Origin: a virus
Length of the DNA: 39,673 bases
Direction: 5' to 3' (one strand)
Virus record (IMG/VR): IMGVR_UViG_3300045988_108579
Span: 1 to 39,673 of that record
Shown: positions 1 through 39,673 of the stretch, in pieces
How the letters are laid out: every line of letters begins with the position of its first letter
How positions within the stretch are numbered: position 1 is the first letter of the stretch
The notes under the pieces: model-generated
Told to the model about the DNA's origin: nothing
The model's database searches: none
Seen by the model: the letters and a program-made list of their open reading frames with translations, nothing else
Program-made: the position numbers and the translations under genes

Positions 1-119
1 GAGCAGTTGCAGCACTTCATTCATTTTCTCCTTTGCGCTGCCGGTGGCGGCGGTATACACGGATGATAACGAGGACGACCATAAGCGCGGCGATCGCAAA
101 ACAGACCATCGAGAACACC
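1..119. repeat. Terminal direct repeat, left copy. Circular-assembly overlap or a short DTR.
   Basis: Read base by base, 1..119 is identical to 39555..39673. The repeat is bounded by the window ends, so the genome unit is 39,554 bp. Confidence 0.95.
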
Positions 120-535: not shown

Positions 536-839
536 GTTCTCCGTCCTTTCGTTATTTTCGGGGTGAACCGGGATATATTCGTGTCGAAAAAGCTGAACTC
601 CGGCTCGCCCGCAAAGCGTTCGGTTTCGGATTTTGCGCCGGTCTGTTACGATGCAGTAACAGCAGGGCGAGCGGGACGCCCTGCGGCAGACGTCCGGGGC
701 GGGTCTGTGGCACGGCTACCCCGGGCGTTTGCCTACACTATAGCACTATCCGCGGCAGAACGGCACGGAAAATATATAAATTTGTAAGAATATACAAGAG
801 AATAACCAGAAATGCAACAAAATGACAAGGGGGAAAGAA

Positions 840-938
840 ATGGAAGAGACGAAGATCGAGGAGATCGTGCGGATGCTGCGGAGGATGGACATATGGCAGC
901 TGCGGAGAGTGTACTTCTTCGTGCTGGGGATGATGTAG
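840..938 (+). CDS. Mini-protein, 32 aa. Paralog 1 of the IEEIVRML family.
   Basis: MEETKIEEIVRMLRRMDIWQLRRVYFFVLGMM. An AAGGGGGAAAG RBS-like tract lies just upstream. A 32-nt block (849..880) is identical to 16151..16182. The ORF is below the size cutoff of the ORF track. Confidence 0.55.
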   Translation: MEETKIEEIVRMLRRMDIWQLRRVYFFVLGMM

Positions 939-1038: not shown

Positions 1039-1314
1039 TCAGTCAAACAAATCGCTGTGTGTGCCGGTACGGGTGAGACAGAGCGTCAGCTCGCCATGGG
1101 ATATCTCGTAGATCAGCAGCCAGTCCGGCGTGATGTGGCACTCGCGGCAGCCGATATAGTCGCCGGAGAGCGCGTGGTCGCGGTTCTTTTCCGGGAGCGG
1201 CTTTTCCTCGGCGAGAAGCTGCACAACGTTTTCCAACAGGCGCACGTCATAGCCGCGGCGGACGATGCGCTTATAGTCCCGGCGGAAGGCTGCCTGAAAC
1301 TTAATCGTCAGCAT
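1039..1314 (-). CDS. yafQ: Type II toxin, YafQ/RelE family mRNA interferase.
   Basis: 91 aa. DHALSGDYIGCRECHITPDWLLIYEI...TRTGTHSDLFD matches the YafQ pattern DHPLxGxxxGxRxxHxxPDWxLIY...RTGTHxxLF. It overlaps the upstream antitoxin gene by 14 nt. Confidence 0.85.
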   Translation of the reverse strand: MLTIKFQAAFRRDYKRIVRRGYDVRLLENVVQLLAEEKPLPEKNRDHALSGDYIGCRECHITPDWLLIYEISHGELTLCLTRTGTHSDLFD

Positions 1315-1573
1315 TGAGCGCCTCCATCAGATCCTCGACGGAATGGAACGGGCCGCTCAAGCCGATGCCGGCCTCGGCGTCCTCGATCGCCTTTCTCGTT
1401 TCGGCGTTCGGGATCTCCGCGCCGATCTCAAAGGGGATGCGGTATTCGCGGACGGCCTTTTTCGCAAAGACGGTGACGGCGGCGGTGACGGAAAGCCCCA
1501 TATCGGCACAGAACGCCTCGAACTGCTTCTTGAGCTCGCTGTCCATACGGATATTCATGACCGTGGTTGCCAT
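1301..1573 (-). CDS. dinJ: Type II antitoxin, DinJ/RelB family (ribbon-helix-helix).
   Basis: Starts at internal ATG 1573 with GGAG 8 nt upstream. MATTVMNIRMDSELKKQFEAFCADMGLSVTAAVTVFAKKAVREYRIPFEI is DinJ-like. It lies immediately upstream of yafQ. Confidence 0.8.
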   Translation of the reverse strand: MATTVMNIRMDSELKKQFEAFCADMGLSVTAAVTVFAKKAVREYRIPFEIGAEIPNAETRKAIEDAEAGIGLSGPFHSVEDLMEALNADD

Positions 1574-1604
1574 ACTATCAGCTCCTTTCAATATTTGTAT
1601 ATAC

Positions 1605-1633
1605 ATTGTATTACATAATATACACGTTGTCAA
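1605..1633 (-). promoter_or_regulatory. Sigma-A-type promoter of dinJ-yafQ.
   Basis: On the minus strand: TTGACA (1633..1628), 17-nt spacer, TACAAT (1610..1605). The spacer and flank contain the inverted repeat GTATAT...ATATAC, a candidate autoregulatory operator. Confidence 0.7.
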
Positions 1634-1636
1634 CAT

Positions 1637-1675
1637 AAAAAAGAGAACGGAGGTCAATCTCCGTTCTCTTTTTCT
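1637..1675 (-). terminator. Rho-independent terminator after the CI-like repressor. An A-run on the other side makes it potentially bidirectional.
   Basis: 11-bp stem AGAGAACGGAG/CTCCGTTCTCT with loop GTCAAT. T-runs follow on both strands. The repressor stop codon lies in the loop. Confidence 0.75.
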
Positions 1676-2058
1676 TTTTGCAGGGCGTTGTAGGATTCGT
1701 AGACATTGCAGACGAACTCAAGCGCGGCGCGGATGGCTGGTTCGGGTGTCTTGCGCAGGGCGTCGATGAACGCGAGCACCTCGGGCGAGGCGCTCTCTTT
1801 GGACAGGCCGCCGAAGAAGCGGGCGCGATCCTCATCCTCGGTGAGCTGCTCGAGCATCTCGCCGGTGCCATCGCGGAGCCAGGCTTCCCGCACATTGAAT
1901 TCGCGGCAGATCAGCGAGATCACCGCATCGGACGGGACGTTTCGACCGGATTCATAAGTGGCTACGGTGCTCTGCTTGGTTTTGGTGCGTTCGGCGAACT
2001 TCTGCTGCGTGAGGCCGTAAAAATCACGAACCTCCTTGATGCGGCTGCCAACGGACAT
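1654..2058 (-). CDS. CI-like XRE-family HTH repressor.
   Basis: The start is taken at ATG 2058, with AAGGAGG 8 nt upstream. MSVGSRIKEVRDFYGLTQQKFAERTKTKQSTVATYESGRNVPSDAVISLICREFNV is a classic XRE HTH. It is divergent from an operator-rich region. Confidence 0.85.
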   Translation of the reverse strand: MSVGSRIKEVRDFYGLTQQKFAERTKTKQSTVATYESGRNVPSDAVISLICREFNVREAWLRDGTGEMLEQLTEDEDRARFFGGLSKESASPEVLAFIDALRKTPEPAIRAALEFVCNVYESYNALQKEKENGD

Positions 2059-2081
2059 AGGCAGCACCTCCTTTCGAGGAC

Positions 2082-3635: not shown

Positions 3636-3875
3636 ATGCCGAGAGTACGGCTTGCCGTTCCGGCGGAGCAGAGGAAGATCGAGGCGGATCTCACGGAGCA
3701 CTGCACGGGCGGCGCGCGATACGCCGACATGACGCAGATCGGGCGGTATCTCGGGATAGAGAACCGGAGGATCGTCGCGGAGTTTCTGGACGGGCTGCCG
3801 TGCTTCCAGCGCGGAACAAAGAAGAAGTGGCGCGTGGACGATCTGGCGGCGCGGATTTTAGAAGCGACGAAATAG
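3636..3875 (+). CDS. Small DNA-binding protein, excisionase/MerR-like HTH candidate.
   Basis: 79 aa. MTQIGRYLGIENRRIVAEFLDGLP...KKKWRVDDLAARIL resembles Xis-type HTH proteins. The start abuts the upstream TAA. Confidence 0.4.
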   Translation: MPRVRLAVPAEQRKIEADLTEHCTGGARYADMTQIGRYLGIENRRIVAEFLDGLPCFQRGTKKKWRVDDLAARILEATK

Positions 3876-3879
3876 GGGA

Positions 3880-3931
3880 GACAATCCCTCCGGCGGCGAC
3901 GCCGCCAGCTCCCTTTGCACAAGGGAGGCTT
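3880..3931 (+). repeat. Double-hairpin repeat module A1.
   Basis: GACAATCCCTCC, then hairpin 1 (GGCGGC-gac-GCCGCC), then AGCTCCCTT-TGCACA-AAGGGAGGCTT. Same architecture as 5089, 12908 and 19984. Confidence 0.85.
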
Positions 3932-3975
3932 AACCCCTCCGTCAGCTTCGCTGACACCTCCCCTGTTAGGGGAGG
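3932..3975 (+). repeat. Double-hairpin repeat module B1.
   Basis: AACCCCTCC, then hairpin 1 (GTCAGC-ttc-GCTGAC), then ACCTCCCC-TGTTA-GGGGAGG. Near-identical to 19106..19151 and related to 11988..12034. Confidence 0.85.
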
Positions 3976-4016
3976 CAAGGGAGCTTCGGGAGACATTTTT
4001 GAAAGGACTAAGAACG

Positions 4017-4376
4017 ATGAAAGGCATTTGTTTTCTGTGCGGGAACTACGAAACGCTTGAGGAGCACCACCTTTTCGGCGGGGCCCGGCGGCCTATTTCT
4101 ACGAAGTACGGCCTGACTGTCCATCTCTGCCCGTGGTGCCACCGGCTCGACGCGGACAGCGCGCACCGCTCCGGCAAGACCGCGGAGCTGCTGCACCAAT
4201 ACGGGCAGCACAAGGCGATGACCGAGCAGAAATGGAGCCGGGAGGAGTTCATCGCGCACTTTGGGAAGAACTATCTCGACGAGGCGCAGATCTGGGGGAT
4301 CGAACACCCGGACGACAGCTGGGACAACGAGAGCGCCTTTCAGCTCGTGGAGGAAGGGGCGGTGCTGCCGTTTTGA
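4017..4376 (+). CDS. HNH-like zinc-binding nuclease-fold protein.
   Basis: Start at ATG 4017, downstream of the repeat. MKGICFLCGN...EEHHLFGGARRPISTKYGLTVHLCPWCH gives a CxxC...HH...CxxCH pattern typical of HNH/His-Me finger proteins. Confidence 0.5.
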   Translation: MKGICFLCGNYETLEEHHLFGGARRPISTKYGLTVHLCPWCHRLDADSAHRSGKTAELLHQYGQHKAMTEQKWSREEFIAHFGKNYLDEAQIWGIEHPDDSWDNESAFQLVEEGAVLPF

Positions 4377-4903
4377 AGGACGAATACATCTGTTATCGGA
4401 CGCAGTGCAGGTATCATTCCGGCAATGTGAGCGGGTCTGACGGGAGCTGCAACTACTTCTTTATCACCGGCGAGACCAAGACGAGCCTGGGCGAGGCGGA
4501 CATCACGAGGAAATGCGGGCTTTATAAGCCGGGGACGGCGCTGCGGGTACGGGCGCAGCCGGTCGTGCTGCGGGGAAGCTCTCCGAGGAGGGAACCGAAG
4601 CAGCGAGCGGGGCGGCTTTACGACTGGGCGCAGTTCCGGGCACTCTGGGAAGAGGGAAAGAACGACCGGGAGATCGCGCGGACGATCGGATGCAACCCGG
4701 ACACGGTGCAAAAGTGGCGGCACGGCGCGGGACTCCCGCCGAGATACCGGCAGGAGATCGACCGAGCAAGGCTGAAGGAGCTGTGGGAGGCCGGGATGGA
4801 CGATCCGCACATTGCGAAGGAGCTCGGCGTTTCGACGATGTCCGCATGGCGGGCGCGAAACGGGATGGGACTCCCGACGCAGAAAGAGAGGGCGAAGGAA
4901 TGA
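4373..4903 (+). CDS. DNA-binding protein with a Cys-rich N-terminus and two tandem HTH repeats.
   Basis: There is no ATG before the conserved part. A TTG at 4373 overlaps the upstream stop (TTGA). The repeats are WEEGKNDREIARTIGCNPDTVQKWRHGAGLPP and LWEAGMDDPHIAKELGVSTMSAWRARNGMGLP. The start is uncertain. Confidence 0.5.
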   Translation: MKDEYICYRTQCRYHSGNVSGSDGSCNYFFITGETKTSLGEADITRKCGLYKPGTALRVRAQPVVLRGSSPRREPKQRAGRLYDWAQFRALWEEGKNDREIARTIGCNPDTVQKWRHGAGLPPRYRQEIDRARLKELWEAGMDDPHIAKELGVSTMSAWRARNGMGLPTQKERAKE

Positions 4904-5169
4904 AAACGTGCAGGGGATGTCCGCACATCGCGCTGGACCAATGGCCGCAGGGGAAGCAGGCGGTGCGCTGCCTGTACACCGGGAACGGCGACAGGTTCGG
5001 GCGAGTGCTGCACGTTGTGCGGGACGGGAATCCGCATCCGGACAGCGTGAGGACGCCGGAGTGGTGCAAAAAGGAGCGGGACGGGGACGACAATCCCTCA
5101 GTCTCGCCTACGGAGAGCCAGCTCCCTTTACACAAGGGAGCCTTAGAAAGAAAGGGGAACATTGAATGA
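4900..5169 (+). CDS. Small Cys-containing protein. Its C-terminal roughly 25 aa are encoded by repeat module A2.
   Basis: ATGA overlap with the upstream gene. MKTCRGCPHIALDQWP...TPEWCKKER is followed by DNPSVSPTESQLPLHKGALERKGNIE, which is read through 5089..5144. Confidence 0.55.
   Translation: MKTCRGCPHIALDQWPQGKQAVRCLYTGNGDRFGRVLHVVRDGNPHPDSVRTPEWCKKERDGDDNPSVSPTESQLPLHKGALERKGNIE
5089..5144 (+). repeat. Double-hairpin repeat module A2, inside the 3' end of CDS 4900..5169.
   Basis: GACAATCCCTCA, then a degenerate hairpin 1 (TCTCG..CGGAGA), then AGCTCCCTT-TACACA-AAGGGAGCCTT. Confidence 0.8.
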
Positions 5170-5429
5170 TTCCGAAGGAGACGAAGTGCAAGTACTGCGG
5201 GCGGCCGGTTTTGTTCGTGCCGGGGCCGCGGGGGCTTTTGTGCGTGGAGGCGTCGCTGACGCCGTACCGCTTCCGCCGGGCGGAGGAGAGCAGCCACGAC
5301 ATGGTGACGCTCTACACCAACAGCGGCACGCCGCTGCCGGTGATCGAGTGCGAGGAGGACGAAATGTGCGGGGCGGCACACAAATTCCATTTCTGCCCGA
5401 ACAAGAAGAGAGAGAGGAAAACGAAATGA
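5166..5429 (+). CDS. Hypothetical Cys-rich (zinc-ribbon-like) protein.
   Basis: 87 aa. ATGA overlap upstream. CKYCG...C...CEEDEMCG...HFC. Confidence 0.55.
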   Translation: MIPKETKCKYCGRPVLFVPGPRGLLCVEASLTPYRFRRAEESSHDMVTLYTNSGTPLPVIECEEDEMCGAAHKFHFCPNKKRERKTK

Positions 5430-6745: not shown

Positions 6746-6822
6746 AGGAGCGGGTTTTGTGGGCTTGCGGGGCGTGCGCCGCTGCGGCGGCGCTGCTCGC
6801 GGTGCTGGGGCATATCTTTTAG
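6742..6822 (+). CDS. Possible 26-aa hydrophobic micro-peptide.
   Basis: ATGA-coupled to the upstream stop. MKERVLWACGACAAAAALLAVLGHIF. The translational coupling is the only support. Confidence 0.2.
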   Translation: MKERVLWACGACAAAAALLAVLGHIF

Positions 6823-6896
6823 CCGAAACGGGCGGAAGGCCCGTCGTATGGGGATGGCCGCCCATGCCTGATGATGGCAGGCCGAAGAAAGGACGG

Positions 6897-7253
6897 ATGT
6901 GTATGTCAGCTGTGGAAAAGATCGAGCGGCAGCAGGCGAAGGAAAAGGGGCGCACCGCCGCGTGGATGGTGGGAGAGCAGCTCAAGGACATGGCCCGGCG
7001 GGAGCCGGAGAGCGCGGAGCTGCTCGACAAGGATCTTGATATCCCGGAAATGAGCATCCAGCAGGCCGAGAAGAAGATCAAGGCCTACGCGGACGCGCAC
7101 AAGACCGGGAGCTTTGCGTGTGTGACGCCGGTGGAGGCCGAGAGGATCTTGCGGGAGTTTTACGGATTGACGGCGCGGGAGGAGCAGAGCAGCGCCCCTA
7201 CGGGCGATAATGGGGGCGACGCCGGGATCATCGATCTGGGGGCGTTTTTATGA
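6897..7253 (+). CDS. PcfK-like protein (tentative).
   Basis: Start at ATG 6897 or 6903, after GAAAGGA. ...MSIQQAEKKIKAYADAHKTGSFACVTPVEAERILREFYGL resembles PcfK-like proteins. It lies directly upstream of a PcfJ-like gene, as in pCF10-type elements. The N-terminal 46 codons of the track ORF were rejected. Confidence 0.45.
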   Translation: MCMSAVEKIERQQAKEKGRTAAWMVGEQLKDMARREPESAELLDKDLDIPEMSIQQAEKKIKAYADAHKTGSFACVTPVEAERILREFYGLTAREEQSSAPTGDNGGDAGIIDLGAFL

Positions 7254-8860
7254 CGCTATCGGAAACGCCGCCGGAGGGGCTTCTGGACTGGATCAAGGCG
7301 CAGAAGCTCGACTGGCGGGACTATTTCATCTACCGCGCCGGCTGGCAGACGGATCCGCTGACGGGCCTGCGGCACAAGTGCGTGGACGCCGTATGCTCGG
7401 CGTGCGGGGAGACGGTGAAGCTATCGTATGTGCCGGGCGGAGGATGCGGACATGCGGGATACAGCACGCCGTTCGGATTTCTGCATCCGGTGAGCGGGGA
7501 CGCGCTCATAAGCGGCAACAAGCTCGCCTGCCCGATGTGCGGCGAGGCGGTGGAGGCAAAGCATGTGTCAAACGCGCAGCGGCTTGCGCGCTATGTCTGG
7601 CCGATGACGGCGGAGGCGCAGGGCGGGAAGCTGCTGCTCTATCTCTGGCGGGTGTGCCGGGACGTGGAGAAGAGCGGGCGCGTCACATGGCGTGTTGACC
7701 CGTGGGAGGTATACGCCTTCGGCGGGACGAGCGCCGCGCGCTGGCGGCACTGGCAGAAATTCATGTCCTCGACTTACATTCTCCCCGGCTGGGAGGAGCG
7801 GAAGCGGTTTGCCGACACGATGTTCGACGTGGATCTCGTGTACTGCCCGGAGGGGCTGGCGAACATCTACGCGCAGACGGAGTGCGCCAACTGCAAGCTC
7901 GAGACCTATATGGGAGTGGAGACGGAATACCGCTTCCCGGTCGCATGGATGAAGATATGGCAGCGGCACAGGAACGCCGAGGCGCTGACGGCGCCGAACG
8001 CCAAAAAGCTCGCGGCGGCTCTCATCGCCGAGGGGAAGCGCTCTCCGGTGTATAACAAAAACTGGTCGGAGAAGACCGACGTGCTGCACGGCGTGGACTG
8101 GAAAAGGAAAAAGCCGCACGAGCTGCTGCGGATGACGAAGGAGGAGCTCAACTACTTCAACGGCGCGAAGAACGCGCCGAAGCGCTTGAAGGCGCTGCTG
8201 CTCGCTCGGAAATACGGTGTGGCCTGCCGTCTCGGCGAGGAGGTCACAAAGGTGGCGGAGTGGCAGCAGGAGGACTTTCTGAAGCGCGGGGTGCTGCCGG
8301 GCAAGGCCGAGAGGTATCTTGACAGGCAGGCGGCGCGGTATAAAAACCGGCTATGGCCGGGGTATCTGCTGGACTACTGGACGATGGCCGAAAGGCTCGG
8401 CGAGGATCTCACCGAGCGGGACGTGATGTGGCCGCAGAATCTCAAGCGGGCGCACGATCAGATGCAGGAGCGGCAGAAGGCAGAGGCCGCCGAGAAACGG
8501 CGGGAGGCTTTTCAACAGCGCTATGAGCGCATGAAAAAGTACGCCTTTGAGGACGGGGACATTCTCATTCGACCGTGCGGAACGGAGGAGGAACTCATCG
8601 CCGAGGGCAAGGCGCTGCACCACTGCGTCGCCTCCTACGCCGAGCGGCACGCGCGGGGAGAGCTCACGATCTTCTTTATCCGGCGGAAGGACAAACCGGA
8701 TGAGCCGTGGTATACGCTCAACTTCAACGAGAAGAAGCTCTCGGTGACGGAGAACCGGGGCAAGTGCAACTGTGCGCGCACCGACGAGGTACGAAACTTT
8801 GAAAATACATGGCTGGAGTGGGTGCGCTCCGGCCGGAAACGGAGGACAAGCGCAGCGTGA
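7250..8860 (+). CDS. PcfJ-like protein.
   Basis: 536 aa. The C-terminus LIAEGKALHHCVASYAERHARGELTIFFIRRKDKPDEPWYTLNFNEKKLSVTENRGKCN matches the PcfJ signature (EG..L.HCV..Y......G...I..IR ... T.E ... RG..N). The N-terminus has CxxC pairs. Confidence 0.65.
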   Translation: MTLSETPPEGLLDWIKAQKLDWRDYFIYRAGWQTDPLTGLRHKCVDAVCSACGETVKLSYVPGGGCGHAGYSTPFGFLHPVSGDALISGNKLACPMCGEAVEAKHVSNAQRLARYVWPMTAEAQGGKLLLYLWRVCRDVEKSGRVTWRVDPWEVYAFGGTSAARWRHWQKFMSSTYILPGWEERKRFADTMFDVDLVYCPEGLANIYAQTECANCKLETYMGVETEYRFPVAWMKIWQRHRNAEALTAPNAKKLAAALIAEGKRSPVYNKNWSEKTDVLHGVDWKRKKPHELLRMTKEELNYFNGAKNAPKRLKALLLARKYGVACRLGEEVTKVAEWQQEDFLKRGVLPGKAERYLDRQAARYKNRLWPGYLLDYWTMAERLGEDLTERDVMWPQNLKRAHDQMQERQKAEAAEKRREAFQQRYERMKKYAFEDGDILIRPCGTEEELIAEGKALHHCVASYAERHARGELTIFFIRRKDKPDEPWYTLNFNEKKLSVTENRGKCNCARTDEVRNFENTWLEWVRSGRKRRTSAA

Positions 8861-11909: not shown

Positions 11910-11987
11910 GAGGAAAATCAAAATTTTTCTGTGTTTTTTGCTTTGATTTCTGCTGCCGGGGCGCGGCGGCGGAAATGAGGGCGGAAA

Positions 11988-12034
11988 GACTCCCTCCGTC
12001 AGCCTTTGGCTGACACCTCCCTCGGGGAGGGAGG
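11988..12034 (+). repeat. Double-hairpin repeat module B3.
   Basis: GACTCCCTCC, then GTCAGCC-ttt-GGCTGAC, then ACCTCCCTC-ggg-GAGGGAGG. Confidence 0.8.
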
Positions 12035-12062
12035 CAGGAGAAAAGAACGGCGATACCTATAT

Positions 12063-12086
12063 AATTCGCGTGCGCGTGCGCGAATT
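12063..12086. promoter_or_regulatory. AT-clamped alternating Py-Pu palindrome. Candidate Rep origin or nick-site hairpin.
   Basis: AATTCGCGTGCGCGTGCGCGAATT has 8-bp perfect arms (AATTCGCG/CGCGAATT) around a 16-nt uninterrupted CG/TG alternating tract. It overlaps a TATAAT hexamer (12060..12065) and lies 60 nt upstream of the HUH gene. Confidence 0.35.
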
Positions 12087-12145
12087 TTTGCGGACCTGTT
12101 AAAAGGCTATCTTTAGGACGGAGGATAAAAGGAGTGACGGCTTAC

Positions 12146-12979
12146 ATGGAGTACAAGATCATTTCGGGACCGGTGACGGAGATCCGCCGCGGCTGGATGC
12201 CGACAAAGAGAGGCGGCCAGCGCGTTCGGCGGGGAACAAAGGCGAAAAAGTCGAGTATTGAAAAAATCAAACGCAACGAGACGGACGCCATAAAGAAACT
12301 CACCCGAGTGCTCAACTGCAATTTCCGGATGGGGGATCTGTGGCTCACCCTTACTTTTCCGGGGAAGGAAGAAATAAACTGGGAGACCGCTCAAACGGCG
12401 TTCGACCGGTTCCTCCGAAAGCTCCGCGAGTCGTATCGGAAGGAACAAAGGGCGAACATCAAGTTCGTTTACTCCCAAGGCCGGAAAGATGAGGACGGAA
12501 ACGATGCCCGGCCACATTTTCATCTCGTCATGCCGGCGGCGGACTATGAGCTCGTCTGCGCTCTCTGGCCACAGGAGGCGGTGACGTACCGCCGTCTTGA
12601 CGGACGGAAGGATCATGTCAAGATTGCAGAGTATATGATACGAAACGCCAAGGGCGTACCGGGGAAAAAGAAATACCACACGAGCCGCGGGTTAGAAAAG
12701 CCTGTCTATACGGAACCGGTGCCAGTGTACATCAACAGCAAGATCGAACTCCCGAAAGACGCGATCATCTGTGAGCAGCATAAAACACGGGATTACGAAA
12801 GCGGGTTTACCTCGGAGTATGTCCGCTATATTCGACCGGAGAAGGAAAGAAAAGGCAACGGCGCGCGCGTCTCTGCGCGTTCTGTTAAAACAAATGTCAA
12901 CCGGGGCGACAATCCCTCCGGCGGCGATGCCGCCACCTCCCTTTGCACAAGGGAGGCTAAAAAGGAGGCGGGGAATTGA
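12146..12979 (+). CDS. HUH-superfamily rolling-circle Rep-like endonuclease.
   Basis: Motif I DLWLTLTF. Motif II (HUH) RPHFHLVM, with HFH at 12515..12523. Motif III Tyr region IAEYMIRNAKG. The start is ATG 12146, or GTG 12134. The last roughly 20 codons are encoded by repeat module A4. Confidence 0.65.
   Translation: MEYKIISGPVTEIRRGWMPTKRGGQRVRRGTKAKKSSIEKIKRNETDAIKKLTRVLNCNFRMGDLWLTLTFPGKEEINWETAQTAFDRFLRKLRESYRKEQRANIKFVYSQGRKDEDGNDARPHFHLVMPAADYELVCALWPQEAVTYRRLDGRKDHVKIAEYMIRNAKGVPGKKKYHTSRGLEKPVYTEPVPVYINSKIELPKDAIICEQHKTRDYESGFTSEYVRYIRPEKERKGNGARVSARSVKTNVNRGDNPSGGDAATSLCTREAKKEAGN
12908..12958 (+). repeat. Double-hairpin repeat module A4, inside the 3' end of the HUH gene.
   Basis: GACAATCCCTCC, then GGCGGC-gat-GCCGCC, then ACCTCCCTT-TGCACA-AAGGGAGGCT. 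Nearly identical to A1. Confidence 0.85.
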
Positions 12980-15335: not shown

Positions 15336-15369
15336 AAAACAGGACAGGGGGAAAGCCTGTCCTGTTTTT
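15336..15369 (+). terminator. Rho-independent terminator after terL.
   Basis: 13-bp stem AAAACAGGACAGG/CCTGTCCTGTTTT, followed by TTTTTG. Confidence 0.8.
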
Positions 15370-15380
15370 GCGTTTGGGTA

Positions 15381-15424
15381 TTGACAATGTACCCCACATT
15401 TGATATATTAAACGTGGGGTACAT
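15381..15424 (+). promoter_or_regulatory. Consensus promoter embraced by an 11-bp perfect inverted repeat.
   Basis: TTGACA (15381..15386), 17 nt, TATATT (15404..15409). The inverted repeat is ATGTACCCCAC (15387..15397) and GTGGGGTACAT (15414..15424). Confidence 0.7.
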
Positions 15425-16132: not shown

Positions 16133-16240
16133 ATGAATAACGATAGAGAAACGAAGATCGAGGAGATCGTGCGGATGCTGCGAAACATGGATATACGGGC
16201 GCTGCGGCGGGGGTATTTCTTCCTGCTGGGGGTGATCTGA
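16133..16240 (+). CDS. Mini-protein, 35 aa. Paralog 2 of the IEEIVRML family.
   Basis: MNNDRETKIEEIVRMLRNMDIRALRRGYFFLLGVI. AAAGGAA RBS. It shares a 32-nt identical block with paralog 1. Confidence 0.55.
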   Translation: MNNDRETKIEEIVRMLRNMDIRALRRGYFFLLGVI

Positions 16241-16258: not shown

Positions 16259-16411
16259 ATGAAAAGCAATACGGCAAACGCCGAGCGGGAAAAGACCATC
16301 GAGGAGATCGTGCGGATGCTGGCCAACACGGACGAGGAGGCTCTGCGGTTTATCCGGAGCTTTCTGCGGGCAGCACGGGAGCAGCACAAACGTGATAATA
16401 AATGCGGGTAA
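16259..16411 (+). CDS. Mini-protein, 50 aa. Paralog 3 of the IEEIVRML family.
   Basis: AAAGGAG RBS. MKSNTANAEREKTIEEIVRMLANTDEEALRFIRSFLRAAREQHKRDNKCG. The 24-nt core 16298..16321 is identical to 855..878 and 16157..16180. Confidence 0.55.
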   Translation: MKSNTANAEREKTIEEIVRMLANTDEEALRFIRSFLRAAREQHKRDNKCG

Positions 16412-18113: not shown

Positions 18114-19073
18114 ATGCCAGCTAATATTGGAAAATGGACGACCGACAACTACAAGTTTGTCGGCAAGGCGTTCGACTTTTCGTATGCCGACCGCCTCAAT
18201 AAGCTCTCGCCCGTCGTGGGCGAGGTGAACGCCAAGAGCATCGACTACGAGCTGACCGGCTCCGGCGGCTACGGCGAAGCGCCGCTTTACGACGGAAACA
18301 ACCTGAACACCGGCTCGCTGCGCCGCGGCTTCAAGACCATCATCACGCCGGAGGAATTCTCACTCTCCATCCCCGTCGGCTACAAGGAAGCGAAGATCGA
18401 CAAGATGGGCGAGACGAAGAAGGTCGGCTCGAAGCTCGGTGACAGCATGGCGCTCACGGTGTATCTGCATGTGCTGCGCATGTTCGCTAATGCCTGGAAC
18501 ACCGACGGCCGCCACAACGGCGGCGACGGCGTGAGCTGGGCCAACGCCGCGCACCCTGTCGCCTCCCGCGGCTCGAAGGGCCGCCGCTTTGAAGCGGACA
18601 GCGAGAGCGGGACCTACTCGAACATCACAACGGACGCGTTCTCCGTTGCGGCCATCACCGCGGCGCAGGCGCGCGCCAACCGCTTCGTGACGCCGGACGG
18701 TCTGCCGTTCCTGTGCGACTTCGACACCGTTCTCATCTCCCCCGAGCTGGAGGAGAAGGCGAAGAAGATGTTCGGCGAGAACTCCCGCCTGATGCCGATG
18801 CAGAATCCGGACGACGAAACAAACGCTGCGAACCCCATCTACGGCATGCGCTACATCGTCATGGGCGGCGGCGCGGACGGCTTCACGAGCAAGCAGTGGG
18901 CGGTGTGCGACCGCCGGCTGATGAAGGAGCTCGTGAACATCGTCTACAACACGCGCCCGACGGTGCTGCAGTCCCCGCAGGACAACCCGCTGATCGATCT
19001 TTACACCGCGTATGCCGACTTCGGCGTGGGCTGGGGCGACGCAAGACAGATCATCTTCGGCGATCCGGGCTAA
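18114..19073 (+). CDS. Major capsid protein (HK97-fold type).
   Basis: 319 aa with a strong RBS. Position after the scaffold and overall composition are typical of Mu gpT-like or HK97-like capsid proteins. Confidence 0.8.
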   Translation: MPANIGKWTTDNYKFVGKAFDFSYADRLNKLSPVVGEVNAKSIDYELTGSGGYGEAPLYDGNNLNTGSLRRGFKTIITPEEFSLSIPVGYKEAKIDKMGETKKVGSKLGDSMALTVYLHVLRMFANAWNTDGRHNGGDGVSWANAAHPVASRGSKGRRFEADSESGTYSNITTDAFSVAAITAAQARANRFVTPDGLPFLCDFDTVLISPELEEKAKKMFGENSRLMPMQNPDDETNAANPIYGMRYIVMGGGADGFTSKQWAVCDRRLMKELVNIVYNTRPTVLQSPQDNPLIDLYTAYADFGVGWGDARQIIFGDPG

Positions 19074-19105
19074 TGCCGTAAAGCAAACCCTCGACGGGCT
19101 TTGAA

Positions 19106-19151
19106 AACCCCTCCGTCAGCCTCCGGCTGACACCTCCCCTGTTAGGGGAGG
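19106..19151 (+). repeat. Double-hairpin repeat module B5.
   Basis: AACCCCTCC, then GTCAGCC-tcc-GGCTGAC, then ACCTCCCC-TGTTA-GGGGAGG. Near-identical to B1. Confidence 0.85.
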
Positions 19152-19193
19152 CGAGGGGGGAGCGGGAGCGTGTGAGGGAGAAAGGAAACGAAT

Positions 19194-19457
19194 ATGATGA
19201 AGATTGACCGCGTGCTCGCCGTTTCGGCGGGCACGAAAGAGACGAAGGTGGACTGCCACTGTCAGACCGTCGTTGTATCCAACAACAGCGCGAATGTAGC
19301 TTACATCGCGCCGTATGACCCGAACAAGGCGCTGACAGCCGCGGCGGGCTTCCCCATTCCGGCCAACACGGTGCTTCAGGTGCCGTTCGCCGCCGGAGAG
19401 CTGGCGGTCGTTGCGTCGGCGGCATCCACGGACGTGCGCTTCCTGCTGCTGGACTGA
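19194..19457 (+). CDS. Hypothetical small protein.
   Basis: 87 aa, GAAAGGAAA RBS, beta-rich composition. No motif recognised. Confidence 0.55.
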   Translation: MMKIDRVLAVSAGTKETKVDCHCQTVVVSNNSANVAYIAPYDPNKALTAAAGFPIPANTVLQVPFAAGELAVVASAASTDVRFLLLD

Positions 19458-19471
19458 AAGGAGAAAACGAT

Positions 19472-19930
19472 ATGGACAACTTCTGGAAGGCCATTGTGAC
19501 CGCGGCAGCCGCGGCGCTGATGGCGTACTTCAAGCAGCTTGTTGTTCCGGTGGCGGTGCTCATCGCGGTGATGATCTGCGATTACGTTACGGGGATGACG
19601 GCGGCGTGGATGAACAAGGAGCTTTCGAGCCGCAAGGGCATTCAGGGCGTGATCAAGAAGGTTTTCTACCTGATGATCGTTGCCGTGGGTATGGGGGTTG
19701 ACTACCTCATCACGATGCTCGGCGGCAAGCTCGGCGTCCAGCTCGATGTGAATTTCGTTGTGGGTCTGCTGGTGATCGTGTGGCTTATTATTAACGAACT
19801 CATCTCCATTCTGGAGAACAGCGGGAAGATCGGCGTACCTATGCCGGACTTCCTCATGAAGCTGCTGGACCGTCTGAAGCAGACCACCGAGAAAAAGGCG
19901 GAGGTCGAGGAAGCTCCGCCGGATAACTGA
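19472..19930 (+). CDS. Holin (Phage_holin_4_1 / TcdE-like family).
   Basis: About 4 TM segments. ICDYVTGMTAAWMNKELSSRKGIQGVIKKV...INELISILENSGKIGVPMPDFL matches the conserved E(S/L)xSIxENxxxxGxPxP signature of this holin family. Confidence 0.8.
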   Translation: MDNFWKAIVTAAAAALMAYFKQLVVPVAVLIAVMICDYVTGMTAAWMNKELSSRKGIQGVIKKVFYLMIVAVGMGVDYLITMLGGKLGVQLDVNFVVGLLVIVWLIINELISILENSGKIGVPMPDFLMKLLDRLKQTTEKKAEVEEAPPDN

Positions 19931-19941
19931 TTATGTGAGGG

Positions 19942-19970
19942 AAACAGGGCGGGGTGACTCGCCCTGTTTT
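19942..19970 (+). terminator. Rho-independent terminator after the holin.
   Basis: Stem AAACAGGGCG/CGCCCTGTTT with an 8-nt loop, then a T-run. Confidence 0.65.
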
Positions 19971-19983
19971 CGGTAAAAAAAAC

Positions 19984-20038
19984 GACAATCCCTCAGTCAG
20001 CCTTGCGGCTGACAGCTCCCTTTGCACAAGGGAGCCTT
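19984..20038 (+). repeat. Double-hairpin repeat module A6.
   Basis: GACAATCCCTCA, then GTCAGCC-ttgc-GGCTGAC, then AGCTCCCTT-TGCACA-AAGGGAGCCTT. Confidence 0.85.
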
Positions 20039-20060
20039 TGAGCGGAAAGGAGGAAACGAT

Positions 20061-20615
20061 ATGACGCTCGGAGAAGCGAAAAACAAGGTATACATGCTCC
20101 TCGACGAGCACAGCGCGGGCGGAGAGATCGAGCACGACGAGGACATCGAGAAGAAGATGACGGCGTTTTTCGACATGGCGCAGAAGACGCTTGCGCAGAT
20201 CCGGAAGATCCTCCGGGAGGAGGTCATTGTCCCAACGTTGGGAAAAACCGTATACGCCATGCCGGAGGATTTCTACTCGCTGTACCGGATATGGGCGGAC
20301 GGGAGGAATGCGACGCGGCGCTTCCGGTGGATGGGCGGGAAGCTCGTCATTCCGGAGGGGTACGCGGAGGTGACGGTCGAATATTTCGCCGTGCCGCGGA
20401 CGATCCCGCAGGACGCGCCGGACAGCTACGCATTTGAGATCGCGCCGGACGCGTGCGAGTGCATGCCGTACTATGTGGCGGCGCAGCAGCTCCTCCCCGA
20501 TCTCGTGATGGACTACGGGGCGATGCTGCAGATGTACAACTATCAGGTGTCGCTTCTCAGGACGACGCAGCCGGGCGAGAACCGGCGCATCGCGCAGAGC
20601 CTTTTCCGGGGGTAA
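20061..20615 (+). CDS. Virion structural protein, putative head-tail adaptor.
   Basis: ATG 20061 follows GAAAGGAGG. 184 aa. The call rests on position at the start of the tail gene block only. Confidence 0.4.
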   Translation: MTLGEAKNKVYMLLDEHSAGGEIEHDEDIEKKMTAFFDMAQKTLAQIRKILREEVIVPTLGKTVYAMPEDFYSLYRIWADGRNATRRFRWMGGKLVIPEGYAEVTVEYFAVPRTIPQDAPDSYAFEIAPDACECMPYYVAAQQLLPDLVMDYGAMLQMYNYQVSLLRTTQPGENRRIAQSLFRG

Positions 20616-22482: not shown

Positions 22483-23262
22483 ATGAGCATACAGGAACAG
22501 AAGATCACGGACGCCGCCATCGCCGCGAACGGCGTGCAGAGCCGGCCCGACAAGCTGACCGGCACGGCGGCGCAGAACAAGAAGGTATTCGACGCGCTCG
22601 TGACGGCGGTGGTGAAAGAGCGCTTCAACGCCCTGCTCGACGAGCTGACCGGAACGACTGCCGCGGCGCAGCTCGGCATCACGACGATCCCCGGTTTTTC
22701 GGCGGGGAACGTACAGACGGCGCTTGAGCAGATCGTACAGGCGATGCAGGACGTGACGCAGGGCAGCGTTGCGGACGGGAGCATCACACTATTAAAGCTC
22801 GCCGCGGAGGTGACGGCCGTCGCTCTCGGCGGCGCGGCGGCGAGCCATACGCACGGCGCGGAAGATATAAATTCCGGCGTTCTGGACGCGGCGAGGATAC
22901 CGGTGCTGGACGGCACGAAGCTCGGCGCGGGGAGCGTCGGCACGGCGCAGCTCGGCGCGGCGGCGGTGACGACGGAGAAGCTCGCGGCGCTCTCGGTGCT
23001 CGCAACGCACATCGCGCAGGGCGCGGTCACGGCGCAGAAGATCGCGCCGGGCGCGGTCACGGCGGAGAAGATCGCCGCGGGTGCTATCATCACGGCGCTG
23101 CTCGCGCCGAACGCCGTGACCGCCGAGAAGCTCGCGAACGACATTCCGTATACGAAGTTCGGGCTTGTAGCCGATCAGGTGCGGCACGTTTACGCCGGAA
23201 CGACGGAGCCGGACGCCGGTCTCGGCAGCGACGGGGATATCTATCTCAAGTATGCAGAGTGA
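22483..23262 (+). CDS. Tail fibre protein with decapeptide repeats.
   Basis: Repeats of G(A/S)V(T/G)T(A/E)(K/Q)(L/I)A, for example GAVTAQKIAPGAVTAEKIAAGAIITALLAPNAVTAEKLA, are typical of phage fibre proteins. Confidence 0.6.
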   Translation: MSIQEQKITDAAIAANGVQSRPDKLTGTAAQNKKVFDALVTAVVKERFNALLDELTGTTAAAQLGITTIPGFSAGNVQTALEQIVQAMQDVTQGSVADGSITLLKLAAEVTAVALGGAAASHTHGAEDINSGVLDAARIPVLDGTKLGAGSVGTAQLGAAAVTTEKLAALSVLATHIAQGAVTAQKIAPGAVTAEKIAAGAIITALLAPNAVTAEKLANDIPYTKFGLVADQVRHVYAGTTEPDAGLGSDGDIYLKYAE

Positions 23263-39574: not shown

Positions 39575-39673
39575 TCATTTTCTCCTTTGCGCTGCCGGTG
39601 GCGGCGGTATACACGGATGATAACGAGGACGACCATAAGCGCGGCGATCGCAAAACAGACCATCGAGAACACC
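39555..39673. repeat. Terminal direct repeat, right copy of 1..119.
   Basis: Exact 119-nt identity with the window start. It contains the integrase start codon and the 3' end of the HTH-TM gene. Confidence 0.95.

What the first reader, a model, noticed from the sequence alone, without database searches (positions are those of the whole stretch)
3880..3975. Seven double-hairpin repeat modules in two variants that alternate strictly as ABABABA
**Architecture.** Seven modules of about 45-55 nt share one design. Each has a CCCTC(C/A) leader. Hairpin 1 follows, usually GTCAGCC-loop-GGCTGAC or GGCGGC-loop-GCCGCC. Hairpin 2 begins A(C/G)CTCCC.

**Variants.**
- Variant A starts GACAATCCCTC and ends CTCCCTT-T(G/A)CACA-AAGGGAG. 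Copies: A1 3880..3931, A2 5089..5144, A4 12908..12958, A6 19984..20038.
- Variant B starts (A/G)AC(C/T)CCCTCC and ends CCTCCC(C/T)-loop-GGGGAGG. Copies: B1 3932..3975, B3 11988..12034, B5 19106..19151.

**Regularities.**
- All seven lie on the plus strand, co-oriented with the flanking genes.
- Their order along the genome is perfectly alternating. This is 1 of 35 possible orders of 4 A and 3 B.
- A2, A4 and A6 end 17-22 nt before the next start codon.
- B1 and B5 end 41-42 nt before the next start codon.

**Interpretation.** This regularity points to a function at the RNA level or as cassette borders. RNA-level options include processing or stabiliser sites analogous to the T7 RNase III sites, or translational punctuation.

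From memory, and unverified, their reverse translations (PLCKGSW..TEGL and GEVSAKLTEGL) look like peptides commonly mis-annotated in Clostridia genomes. The element may therefore be shared with the host chromosome.
Basis: seen in the sequence. Interest (0 to 1): 0.8.

Follow-up and report, generated by a model that had tools for sequence, protein, structure and literature searches.

The report
Host nuclease-cassette hairpin repeats invading a phage
The seven double-hairpin modules are real, but they are not phage-specific punctuation: they are stray copies of the two ends of a small DUF559 nuclease gene cassette whose ends are scattered, REP/MITE-like, through Oscillospiraceae and other bacterial chromosomes and their phages, which gives a testable role to a large protein family of unknown function.

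Summary
There are exactly seven ~50-65 nt double-hairpin modules, all on the + strand, at the stated coordinates. Four are A, two are B and one (B3) is a third variant. The ABABABA order holds here but not in close relatives, so it is probably chance.

The modules belong to a very large dispersed repeat family. It occurs in Oscillospiraceae and other Clostridia chromosomes (B-type also in Armatimonadota and Deinococcota) and in many viral contigs. No Rfam family matches, and the searched literature does not describe it.

The key result concerns their origin in bacteria. The two module subtypes are the inverted termini of a 116-122 aa DUF559 gene (Vsr/EDxHD-like nuclease fold). The reverse leader GGAGGGATTGT supplies its ribosome-binding site. 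The forward leader encodes its C-terminus. Hairpin 2 plus a T-run is its terminator. 59 of 76 such genes carry both ends. Head-to-head gene-less pairs and solo copies are far more numerous.

Near-identical phages differ in module presence and type at the same sites. Stems are almost purely Watson-Crick with GNA/GNRA loops on the complementary strand, which points to DNA.

The likely mechanism is a REP/RAYT-like non-autonomous element. Phage copies, unlike bacterial ones, are strongly co-oriented with genes, and this is unexplained.

The parts
3879..3933 (+). Module A1. Leader GACAATCCCTCC, hairpin 1 GGCGGC-GAC-GCCGCC, hairpin 2 CTCCCTT-TGCAC-AAGGGAG. Mixed subtype with a G.G mismatch at the base of hairpin 2. 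Intergenic, starting 4 nt after the stop of ORF 3636..3875.
   Evidence: model hit of 69.4 bits.
3932..3994 (+). Module B1, directly abutting A1 as an A->B tandem. Leader AACCCCTCC, hairpin 1 GTCAGC-TTC-GCTGAC, hairpin 2 CCTCCCC-TGTTA-GGGGAGG. It is followed by a purine-rich tail GGCAAGGGAGCTTCGGGAGAC. The start codon of gene 4017..4376 lies 41 nt after hairpin 2.
   Evidence: model hit 3935-3980 at 35.3 bits. The extent of the tail is inferred from the 65-nt B insertion seen in relatives.
5088..5146 (+). Module A2 (AG subtype, imperfect hairpin 1). It lies inside the 3' end of gene 4900..5169 and encodes ...DNPSVSPTESQLPLHKGAL... The site is empty in relative L172 and holds an A+B tandem in L148, L155, L159 and L186.
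   Evidence: 62.3 bits; frame GC3 of 0.86.
11985..12039 (+). Module B3 (third variant). Leader GACTCCCTCC, hairpin 1 GTCAGCC-TTT-GGCTGAC, hairpin 2 CCTCCCTC-GGG-GAGGGAGG. It sits after the stop at 11978 and about 100 nt upstream of rep, before a TATAAT box and the palindrome at 12067-12090.
   Evidence: (33.8 bits).
12907..12961 (+). Module A4 (CC subtype). It lies inside the 3' end of the rolling-circle-type rep gene 12134..12979 and encodes the tail ...DNPSGGDAATSLCTREAKKEAGN*, beyond the conserved domain (aa 2-245). In relatives this site holds B only (L221) or B plus a leaderless A (L146, L236).
   Evidence: (72.8 bits).
19102..19176 (+). Module B5 with its purine-rich tail, between ORF 18114..19073 and ORF 19194..19457. 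In relatives L132, L162 and L224 this site holds an A+B tandem.
   Evidence: 34.7 bits for 19102-19156.
19980..20045 (+). Module A6 (AG subtype; hairpin 1 loop TTGC, which reads GCAA on the complement). It is a 66-nt unit cleanly absent from relatives L162, L199, L221 and L233, bounded only by AAA/AAA. It lies between the holin-gene terminator and the RBS of gene 20061..20615.
   Evidence: 69.6 bits.
19942..19975 (+). Context: a classic hairpin plus T-run (ACAGGGCG...CGCCCTGTTTT) after the holin gene 19472..19930 and immediately upstream of A6. It is not part of the repeat family.
   Evidence: Read directly from the sequence; holin assignment PF05105.
12134..12979 (+). Context: replication initiator gene (phrog_3584; PF23343 REP_ORF2-G2P), bracketed by B3 and A4.

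Best explanation
The seven modules are non-autonomous copies of the terminal repeats of a bacterial DUF559 gene cassette. They form a REP/BIME- or MITE-like dispersed element that entered the phage from its Oscillospiraceae-type host.

Shown: In bacteria the full unit is as follows. A reverse module comes first, and its leader complement GGAGGGATTGT is the Shine-Dalgarno sequence plus spacer. An ATG and a 116-122 aa DUF559 nuclease gene (Vsr/EDxHD-like fold) follow. A forward module comes last. Its leader ACAATCCCTCAGTC encodes the C-terminus, its hairpin 1 holds the stop codon, and its hairpin 2 plus a T-run looks like the terminator. A and B modules are the ends of two different DUF559 lineages. 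Gene-less head-to-head pairs and solo ends vastly outnumber the complete cassettes. The phage has no DUF559 gene. Its modules come and go between near-identical relatives. They sit only where they are tolerated: in intergenic spacers or as short C-terminal tails.

Inferred: The modules act at the DNA level as hairpin or cruciform recognition structures. They are copied or converted in trans with the help of the host-encoded DUF559 nuclease, through break- or nick-induced repair copying, which is homing-like rather than cut-and-paste.

Inferred: In phages, selection on long polycistronic transcripts retains mainly the orientation in which the mRNA carries the cassette's '3'-end' form. That form has a pyrimidine leader, two hairpins and no T-run. 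The opposite orientation would put the '5'-end' form, with an exposed strong ribosome-binding site, on the mRNA.

On this reading the ABABABA order is a coincidence, helped by a recurrent A->B tandem.
For: Family and host sharing:
They occur in 118+ and 38 viral stretches respectively.
- Element boundaries are sharp, (G)AC|AATCCCTC ... AAGGGAGSCTTT, with nothing conserved outside them.

Cassette:
- A DUF559 protein (PF04480, 104.5 bits; PDB 3hrl 5e-16; I-Bth0305I 3r3p at E 0.054) lies exactly between a reverse and a forward module.
- Among 83 related genes from different species-level genomes, 68/81 have the reverse module abutting the ATG, 68/78 have the forward module over the stop, and 59/76 have both.
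- At least 588 bacterial stretches encode such a protein, against only 3 viral stretches.
- B-type modules frame a second DUF559 lineage.
- There is no DUF559 gene in the window.

REP/BIME-like organisation:
- 24 of 31 close pairs are head-to-head. 21 of 22 short-spacer pairs combine the two subtypes.
- The subtypes occur about 1:1 in genomes (77:71).

Turnover:
- The same site holds A, B, A+B, B+A' or nothing in phages with 90-99% identical flanks. This includes a clean 66-nt indel at A6.

DNA rather than sense RNA:
- Of 1147 hairpin-1 pairs, 98% are Watson-Crick and only 1 is G.T.
- Triloops are T-N-C in 78 cases against G-N-A in 4 on the 'sense' strand. GNRA tetraloops number 21 on the complement and 0 on the sense strand.
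- This loop polarity is mirror-symmetric at the two cassette ends.
- Bacterial copies show no orientation preference relative to genes.

Structure under constraint:
- All 6 hairpin-1 pairs covary, and 97% of cells are paired against 40-53% in the slid controls.

Orientation in phages:
- 38 vs 5 clusters, 30 vs 9 clusters, and all ~12 sites on the + strand in relatives.
- Phage copies are enriched for the 3'-terminal subtype.
Against: - No mobilising activity is shown for DUF559. The link is architectural and by co-occurrence only.
- The protein is a bare catalytic domain with no obvious DNA-recognition domain.
- No consistent target-site duplication or target motif was found, and several alleles are replacements rather than insertions. 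Recombination between repeats could therefore explain the turnover without any dedicated enzyme.
- The strong orientation bias in phages could equally reflect a positive RNA-level function or a strand-specific insertion mechanism.
- Both coding-strand proxies are imperfect.
- Copies were ascertained with exact sequence patterns, so conservation of the leader and hairpin 2 is partly by construction.
- The dominance of TTC loops may partly reflect descent from master copies in which CTT-CGC-TGA is coding.
- Some cross-phylum hits come from MAG bins that may be contaminated.
Confidence: 0.55

Rival explanations
1. RNA-level cis-elements recruited by the phage. Transcribed in the sense orientation, the double hairpins would act as mRNA 3'-end stabilisers, processing sites or insulators. 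Alternatively they would modulate translation of the next gene through CCUCC/GGGAGG (anti-SD/SD-like) pairing.
For: - Phage copies are strongly co-oriented with genes.
- A2, A4 and A6 end 17-22 nt before the next start, next to its RBS.
- In the bacterial cassette the modules are transcribed parts of the DUF559 mRNA: the RBS lies in one and the stop and terminator in the other.
- Hairpin 2's 3' arm, AAGGGAGG, is SD-like, while the leader and 5' arm are anti-SD-like.
- Phage copies are enriched for the cassette's 3'-terminal subtype.
- The phage does use RNA processing elsewhere, in the form of a hammerhead ribozyme.
Against: - Modules are present or absent, or swapped, at the same site among near-identical phages, and extra sites exist in relatives. 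None of them is therefore required.
- G.U pairs are virtually absent, and the favoured GNA/GNRA loops are on the antisense strand.
- Bacterial copies ignore gene orientation.
- Stems of 6-8 bp are too short for RNase III, on established knowledge of its dsRNA substrates.
- No T-run follows the phage copies.
- No Rfam family matches.
Confidence: 0.2
2. Passive repeats with no dedicated enzyme. The modules would be decayed remnants of DUF559 cassettes, or simply recombinogenic palindromes. They would spread and be lost by homologous or illegitimate recombination, replication slippage and gene conversion between copies in host and phage DNA. DUF559 would be an ordinary gene that happens to carry them as its expression signals.
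For: - No consistent target-site duplication. Indels are bounded by microhomology (AAA, GGGAGCC) or are replacements.
- Orthologous copies differ mainly by whole-hairpin swaps, as expected from conversion.
- Pair spacers of 18-64 nt look like internal deletions of the cassette.
Against: - A clean 66-nt solo insertion sits between a terminator and an RBS with no cassette remnant.
- Direct A->B tandems occur that are not found in cassettes.
- Very high copy numbers and near-identical conserved parts across phyla argue for active spread.
- Hairpin 1 is kept perfectly paired in dispersed copies, which neutral decay would not do.
Confidence: 0.18
3. Single-strand DNA signals for the phage's own rolling-circle replication. 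The modules would be recognised on one strand by the HUH-type Rep encoded between B3 and A4, or would serve as lagging-strand priming sites (sso-like). This would explain the uniform strand.
For: - The phage encodes a REP_ORF2-G2P / phrog_3584 initiator flanked by B3 and A4.
- All modules are on one strand.
- The stable GNA/GNRA DNA loops are strand-specific.
Against: - The same modules are abundant in bacterial chromosomes on both strands, and in at least 60 unrelated viral contexts.
- Modules are dispensable at every site examined.
- Their demonstrated genetic partner is DUF559, not an HUH protein.
Confidence: 0.05

Closest known systems
REP / BIME elements and REPIN-RAYT systems (Enterobacteria, Pseudomonas)
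   Same: - Short GC-rich palindromic units dispersed in many copies, mostly extragenic and favouring gene 3' ends.
- Two unit subtypes that pair in inverted orientation, like the Y/Z units of BIMEs and like REPIN doublets.
- A low-copy nuclease-type gene flanked by inverted copies of the repeat.
- Structure kept by compensatory change.
   Different: - The flanked gene is a DUF559 Vsr/EDxHD-like PD-(D/E)xK-fold protein, not an HUH Y1 (IS200/IS605-type) RAYT.
- Each unit is a double hairpin with a conserved 10-nt leader instead of a GTAG-headed single palindrome.
- The repeats supply the gene's RBS, C-terminal codons and terminator.
- Copies are common in phages and are orientation-biased there.
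MITEs such as Correia elements (Neisseria) and RUP/BOX (Streptococcus)
   Same: - Non-autonomous short elements related to the ends of a gene-bearing unit.
- Inserted between genes or into gene ends, adding short peptide tails.
- Co-transcribed with neighbouring genes.
- Variable presence among close strains.
   Different: - No IS-type transposase is involved.
- No consistent target-site duplication.
- Solo ends and direct A->B tandems are common.
- The central hairpin is hypervariable rather than copy-identical.
Free-standing and intron-borne homing endonuclease genes of the EDxHD family (I-Bth0305I) and Vsr endonuclease
   Same: - Same nuclease fold clade (PMC3424549, PMC3384342).
- Conserved D...E-x-D-G...H...D residues.
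- A small selfish-looking gene in varied genomic contexts.
   Different: - The DUF559 protein here is the catalytic domain alone.
- It is framed by structured inverted repeats that also exist independently in far larger numbers.
- No intron or intein is involved.
- Activity is untested.
Integron attC sites
   Same: - Conserved short flanks around a sequence-variable, structure-conserved hairpin.
- Strand-specific folding.
- Co-oriented copies between genes.
   Different: - No IntI integrase or attI site.
- No R/L boxes (GTTRRRY).
- The modules do not delimit mobile ORF cassettes in the phage.
T7-type RNase III processing sites and intrinsic terminators
   Same: Hairpins between co-oriented phage genes. 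In the bacterial cassette, hairpin 2 plus a T-run looks like an intrinsic terminator.
   Different: - Stems are only 6-8 bp.
- Phage copies have no T-run.
- Copies are dispensable and polymorphic.

Membership tests
REP/REPIN-RAYT | Short palindromic repeat, many copies per genome, mostly extragenic | tested here: met
Element boundaries are sharp, and convergent contexts outnumber divergent ones. Exact per-genome counts could not be obtained.
REP/REPIN-RAYT | Inverted doublets of the repeat (REPIN / BIME organisation) | tested here: met
   24 of 31 close A-type pairs are head-to-head. 21 of 22 short-spacer pairs are hetero-typic. B-type pairs are tail-to-tail in Armatimonadota.
REP/REPIN-RAYT | Associated gene flanked by the repeats is a RAYT (HUH Y1 transposase) | tested here: not met
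   The gene framed by the repeats is DUF559 (PF04480), not Y1_Tnp. No HUH family recurred among neighbouring ORFs.
REP/REPIN-RAYT | Conserved GTAG-type tetranucleotide at the foot of the palindrome | tested here: not met
   The conserved 5' part is ACAATCCCTC or AACCCCTC.
MITE | Terminal inverted repeats derived from an autonomous element | tested here: met
   Gene-less head-to-head pairs have the same two ends as the DUF559 cassette.
MITE | Target-site duplication of fixed length | tested here: not met
   Filled and empty alleles show AAA microhomology, a 7-nt GGGAGCC repeat, or replacements. There is no fixed duplication. The sample is small.
Rfam RNA families | Match to a curated covariance model | tested here: not met
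   No gathering-score hit on any module. Only chance-level hits appear at E<=10.
Structured cis-regulatory RNA (generic) | Compensatory base changes including G.U intermediates, on the transcribed strand, with orientation tied to transcription | tested here: inconclusive
   Covariation is strong. However, G.U is about 0-1%, the stable loops are on the antisense strand, and orientation is tied to genes only in phages.
Intrinsic terminator | GC-rich hairpin immediately followed by a T-run | tested here: not met
   None of the seven phage modules is called terminator-like on the + strand. Chromosomal cassette copies do carry GGGAGCCTTTTTT.
RNase III processing site (T7-like) | Extended (about 20 bp) imperfect dsRNA stem; cleavage in vivo | not testable with these tools
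   Stems are 6-8 bp by direct reading and folding, which speaks against this. Cleavage itself needs experiment.
Integron attC | R''/L''-L'/R' boxes with GTTRRRY, an IntI integrase, and cassette ORFs | tested here: not met
   No such boxes are present in the aligned modules. The only recombinase in the window is an ordinary Phage_integrase-family protein in the lysogeny block.
DUF559 / Vsr-EDxHD nuclease clade (for the partner protein) | Pfam PF04480 match and conserved catalytic D, E-x-D, H, D residues | tested here: met
   PF04480 at 104.5 bits. D51, E62, D64, H68 and D77 are invariant. 3hrl scores 5e-16 and 3r3p scores 0.054. Nuclease activity was not tested.

The most novel reading that the evidence does not exclude
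DUF559 proteins (bare Vsr/EDxHD-fold nucleases) and their double-hairpin terminal repeats form a previously unrecognised REPIN-RAYT-like system. In it, a PD-(D/E)xK-type nuclease rather than an HUH transposase propagates and maintains a population of hairpin repeats. The system spans several bacterial phyla and spills into their phages. A further possibility is that the Vsr-like mismatch-nicking activity polices the hairpin stems. That would explain why the stems are hypervariable yet almost perfectly Watson-Crick, GC-rich and devoid of G.T.
Probability: 0.3. Interest if true: 0.85.

Novelty: new variant of a known kind. Interest (0 to 1): 0.6.

Why it matters
- DUF559 is a very large protein family with no assigned function. 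Finding that one branch is built into, and framed by, a dispersed hairpin repeat gives a concrete and testable hypothesis for what it does.
- It would add a second, mechanistically different nuclease class to the REP/RAYT paradigm of long-lived intragenomic replicators.
- It explains a source of spurious small ORFs and odd protein tails in gut Clostridia and phage annotations.
- It shows that phages of dominant gut Oscillospiraceae are being colonised by host repeats under an orientation filter. The repeats could serve as a host-linkage marker for uncultured gut phages and as recombination hot spots between phage and host.

Tried and rejected
- Rfam at gathering and permissive thresholds gave no family for the modules.
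- A megablast of 25 kb against deposited phages gave no match. The tandem module found only three unannotated fecal phage records.
- Promoter idea (leader ACAAT as a -10 box): rejected, because nothing is conserved upstream, with no -35 box and no extended -10.
- Terminator idea for the phage copies: rejected, because there are no T-runs.
- Replication-strand targeting in bacteria: solo copies show no link to local GC skew (46 vs 60).
- My first greedy ORF model was too noisy, because ORFs read through the modules. I replaced it with a purine-skew proxy and then with GC3-based calls on masked elements. The purine proxy fails on the window's small minus-strand block.
- RAYT/HUH partner: none was found among recurrent neighbouring genes.
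- Classic target-site duplication: not found.
- Literature searches (repetitive extragenic + Oscillospiraceae; intergenic repeat + hairpin + Faecalibacterium; DUF559; EDxHD; REPIN/RAYT + Clostridia; the repeat sequence itself; MITE + taxa) found no description of the repeat or the cassette.
- I did not run the expensive protein-database searches to test the 'mis-annotated peptide' recollection, because DNA-level evidence already settled host sharing.
Full report
**1. The observation**

The window is a 60% GC genome with a 119-nt terminal direct repeat, so it is a circular or terminally redundant assembly.

It is a temperate phage. A small leftward lysogeny block holds an integrase, a YafQ/RelB toxin-antitoxin pair and an HTH repressor. 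A long rightward block holds everything else.

A sequence-blind scan for adjacent perfect hairpins recovers six of the seven modules, plus one unrelated pair at 643-684. A covariance model built only from bacterial and viral copies elsewhere (alignment A3, model R1) was run over the window with filters off. It gives exactly seven full-length hits, all on the + strand. The four A copies score 62-73 bits and the three B-like copies 34-35 bits. Nothing else scores above 11 bits.

Six modules fold markedly better than shuffles; A2 does not (z = -1.4). The stated distances to the next start codons are correct.

Three corrections are needed:
- B3 is a third variant.
- B modules have a ~20-nt purine-rich tail, which accounts for the 41-42 nt spacing.
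- A2 and A4 are translated. Gene 4900..5169 has frame GC3 of 0.86 and an ATG with an RBS, and it reads through A2. The rep gene 12134..12979 reads through A4, beyond its conserved domain.

**2. The alternation**

ABABABA is 1 of 35 possible orders and was noticed after the fact. I mapped modules of 24 related contigs onto window coordinates. The orders include:
- B-b3-B-A-B (L221)
- A-B-A-B-B (L155)
- b3-A-A-B (L162)

Relatives also carry extra sites near 5172, 7208, 10451, 15360-15400 and 19109. The alternation is therefore not a conserved property. Two things do recur: an A->B direct tandem, and the orientation. Every module at about 12 sites is on the + strand.

**3. Not phage-specific**

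The hits are in Oscillospiraceae, Acutalibacteraceae, Faecousia and other Clostridia. It also hits 118+ viral stretches.

The B pattern also reaches the limit in bacteria. Its hits include repeated matches in complete Capsulimonadaceae (Armatimonadota) chromosomes and in Trueperaceae. It occurs in 38 viral stretches.

Relatives of this phage are ~39.4-39.5 kb contigs binned with Oscillibacter. Rfam has no matching family. Seven literature searches, including one with the repeat sequence itself, found no description.

**4. Anatomy of the family**

Boundaries are sharp: (G)AC|AATCCCTC ... AAGGGAG(S)CTTT. Nothing is conserved outside them.

Hairpin 1 is hypervariable in sequence but almost always a perfect stem. 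In a gapless set of 38 copies:
- all six pairs change on both sides;
- 97% of cells pair, against 40-53% when partners are slid;
- 55 double-change cells are seen, against 15 in shuffles.

The only pair of hairpin 2 not fixed by my search pattern swaps G-C and C-G (29:8). This swap is linked to the base after CCCTC. It defines an 'AG' and a 'CC' subtype.

Across 187 unique copies, 1147 hairpin-1 pairs include only one G.T. Loops are strongly polar:
- 21 tetraloops read GNRA on the complement, and none does on the sense strand.

On the complementary strand these are C(GNA)G and C(GNRA)G. From my own knowledge, not checked here, d(cGNAg) is the classic ultra-stable DNA mini-hairpin.

**5. Organisation in bacteria**

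Close pairs are overwhelmingly head-to-head (24 of 31). Their AT-rich spacers of 18-64 nt have modes at 26-27 and 48. In 21 of 22 short-spacer pairs, one arm is AG and the other CC. The two subtypes occur about 1:1 in genomes.

Solo copies show no preference relative to:
- flanking coding strands (29 vs 24 and 26 vs 26 by purine skew; 23 vs 23 clusters by GC3 gene calls);
- local GC skew.

Convergent contexts outnumber divergent ones (11 vs 2; 19 vs 13).

**6. The partner gene**

Clustering all ORFs near the repeats found mostly housekeeping genes, with one exception: a small protein lying exactly between a reverse and a forward module.

It is a DUF559 protein:
- PF04480 at 104.5 bits;
- PDB 3hrl at 5e-16;
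- second-best profile hit, at E 0.054, to the catalytic domain of the homing endonuclease I-Bth0305I.

D51, E62, D64, H68 and D77 are invariant. This fits the Vsr/EDxHD clade described in PMC3424549 and PMC3384342.

The architecture is precise. The reverse CC-type module ends ...GACGGAGGGATTGT, 0-2 nt before the ATG, so its leader complement is the Shine-Dalgarno sequence. The forward AG-type module begins inside the last codons (GAA-CAA-TCC-CTC-AGT-CAG = ...EQSLSQ). The stop codon lies in hairpin 1, and hairpin 2 is followed by a T-run.

Among 83 related genes from different species-level genomes:
- 68/81 have the 5' module;
- 68/78 have the 3' module;
- 59/76 have both.

At least 588 bacterial stretches encode such a protein, against three viral ones. 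B-type modules frame a second DUF559 lineage, 49-62% identical. There the stop precedes the module and the subtypes are swapped. Leader and hairpin 2 co-vary between lineages.

The phage window has no DUF559 gene. Only about 5 of 157 A-type copies in the unbiased sample adjoin the gene. The rest are pairs or solos.

**7. Behaviour in phages**

Among contigs whose flanks are 90-99% identical to the window:
- The A2 site is empty in L172, where the upstream gene ends differently. It holds A in the window. It holds A+B in four relatives, the extra 65 nt being bounded by a GGGAGCC repeat.
- The A4 site holds A, B, or B plus a leaderless A.
- The B5 site holds B or A+B.
- The A6 module is a clean 66-nt indel, absent from four relatives and bounded only by AAA.

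Orthologous copies differ mainly in hairpin 1. A wider survey found no consistent target-site duplication. No phage module is terminator-like.

Unlike bacterial copies, phage copies are co-oriented with genes:
- 38 vs 5 independent flank clusters by purine skew;
- 30 vs 9 by GC3 gene calls;
- B-type, 6 vs 1.

They are also enriched for the subtype that forms the 3' end of the respective cassette (A: AG 76 vs CC 43; B: CC 24 vs AG 3). These last counts are not corrected for relatedness.

**8. Interpretation**

Shown:
- The modules are members of a large host-shared repeat family.
- The family's two subtypes are the termini of DUF559 cassettes.
- Copies turn over quickly in phages.
- The stems are under structural constraint, and their features (pure Watson-Crick pairing, polar GNA/GNRA loops mirrored at both cassette ends) fit DNA better than a sense RNA.

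Inferred:
- DUF559 is the trans-acting enzyme, by analogy with RAYTs and homing endonucleases.
- Spread is by nick- or break-induced copying rather than cut-and-paste.
- The phage orientation bias is a filter imposed by transcription through the element. The antisense form would expose a strong RBS, while the sense form mimics a gene's 3' end. The evidence does not exclude a positive RNA function in phages, or a strand-specific insertion mechanism.

The idea that the Rep protein uses the modules is unlikely, given their chromosomal abundance and dispensability.

**9. Verdict**

The guess of RNA punctuation is not supported, though not excluded. The hunch about host sharing is right.

The finding leads to an apparently undescribed REP/RAYT-like pairing between a hairpin repeat and a DUF559 nuclease. 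I rate it a new variant of a known kind, with interest 0.6.

Noticed in passing
window 6821-6886 (+): Full-length type II hammerhead ribozyme (RF02276, 50.1 bits against a gathering score of 37, E 1.6e-7). It lies in the rightward gene block upstream of the PcfJ-like gene 7250..8860. It is the only Rfam gathering-score hit in the window.
   Followed up: no
window 1-119 and 39555-39673: Identical 119-nt direct repeat at both ends of the window. This indicates a circular or terminally redundant assembly with a unit length of about 39,554 bp.
   Followed up: no
window 1039-2067 (-) and 38456-39574 (-): Leftward lysogeny block: YafQ-family toxin (1039-1314), RelB antitoxin (1301-1657), HTH repressor (1654-2067) and a Phage_integrase-family protein (38456-39574). 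These real minus-strand genes do not show the negative purine skew expected of coding strands.
   Followed up: partly
window 12134-12979 (+) and 12058-12090: A ~39.5 kb temperate phage encodes a rolling-circle-type initiator (phrog_3584, PF23343 REP_ORF2-G2P). It is preceded by a TATAAT box and the palindrome AATTCGCG-N8-CGCGAATT, which could be an operator or origin.
   Followed up: partly
window 22917-23136 (+): Six or more tandem 30-nt (10-codon) imperfect repeats inside ORF 22483..23262. This is a periodic protein repeat in the structural region.
   Followed up: no
window 27874-36564 (+): A single 2896-aa ORF, more than a fifth of the genome. It was not annotated here.
   Followed up: no
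window 839-934, 16141-16236, 16282-16348 (+): Three paralogous ~90-nt stretches (75-84% identical). They encode ~30-aa mini-ORFs (…ETKIEEIVRMLR.MD...LRR.YFF.LG.M*) in two distant parts of the genome.
   Followed up: no
window 15381-15409 (+): The best sigma-70-like promoter match in the scanned region: TTGACA-17-TATATT with an upstream TG (11 of 12). Several relatives carry an extra A-type module at about this position (w~15360-15405).
   Followed up: partly
L322, L328, L338, L345, L355, L360, L367, L378, L380 (Capsulimonadaceae chromosomes OZ251980, OZ252240, OZ241338, OZ255823); L361, L379, L392 (Trueperaceae): The exact B-type pattern (25 specified bases) recurs many times in complete Armatimonadota chromosomes and in a Deinococcota MAG. 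This is far from the Clostridia and implies horizontal spread or very strong conservation. There, close pairs are tail-to-tail (+-) with 29-77 nt spacers, unlike the head-to-head A-type pairs.
   Followed up: partly
L016:1830-2455: A dense cluster of five A-type modules plus a DUF559 gene fragment within ~600 nt of one Clostridia MAG contig, with AG and CC types alternating around AT-rich spacers. It resembles a BIME-like array.
   Followed up: partly
window 643-684 (+): An unrelated pair of adjacent perfect hairpins (CTGTTAC-GATGCA-GTAACAG, then CAGGGCG-AGCGGGA-CGCCCTG), close to the lysogeny block.
   Followed up: no
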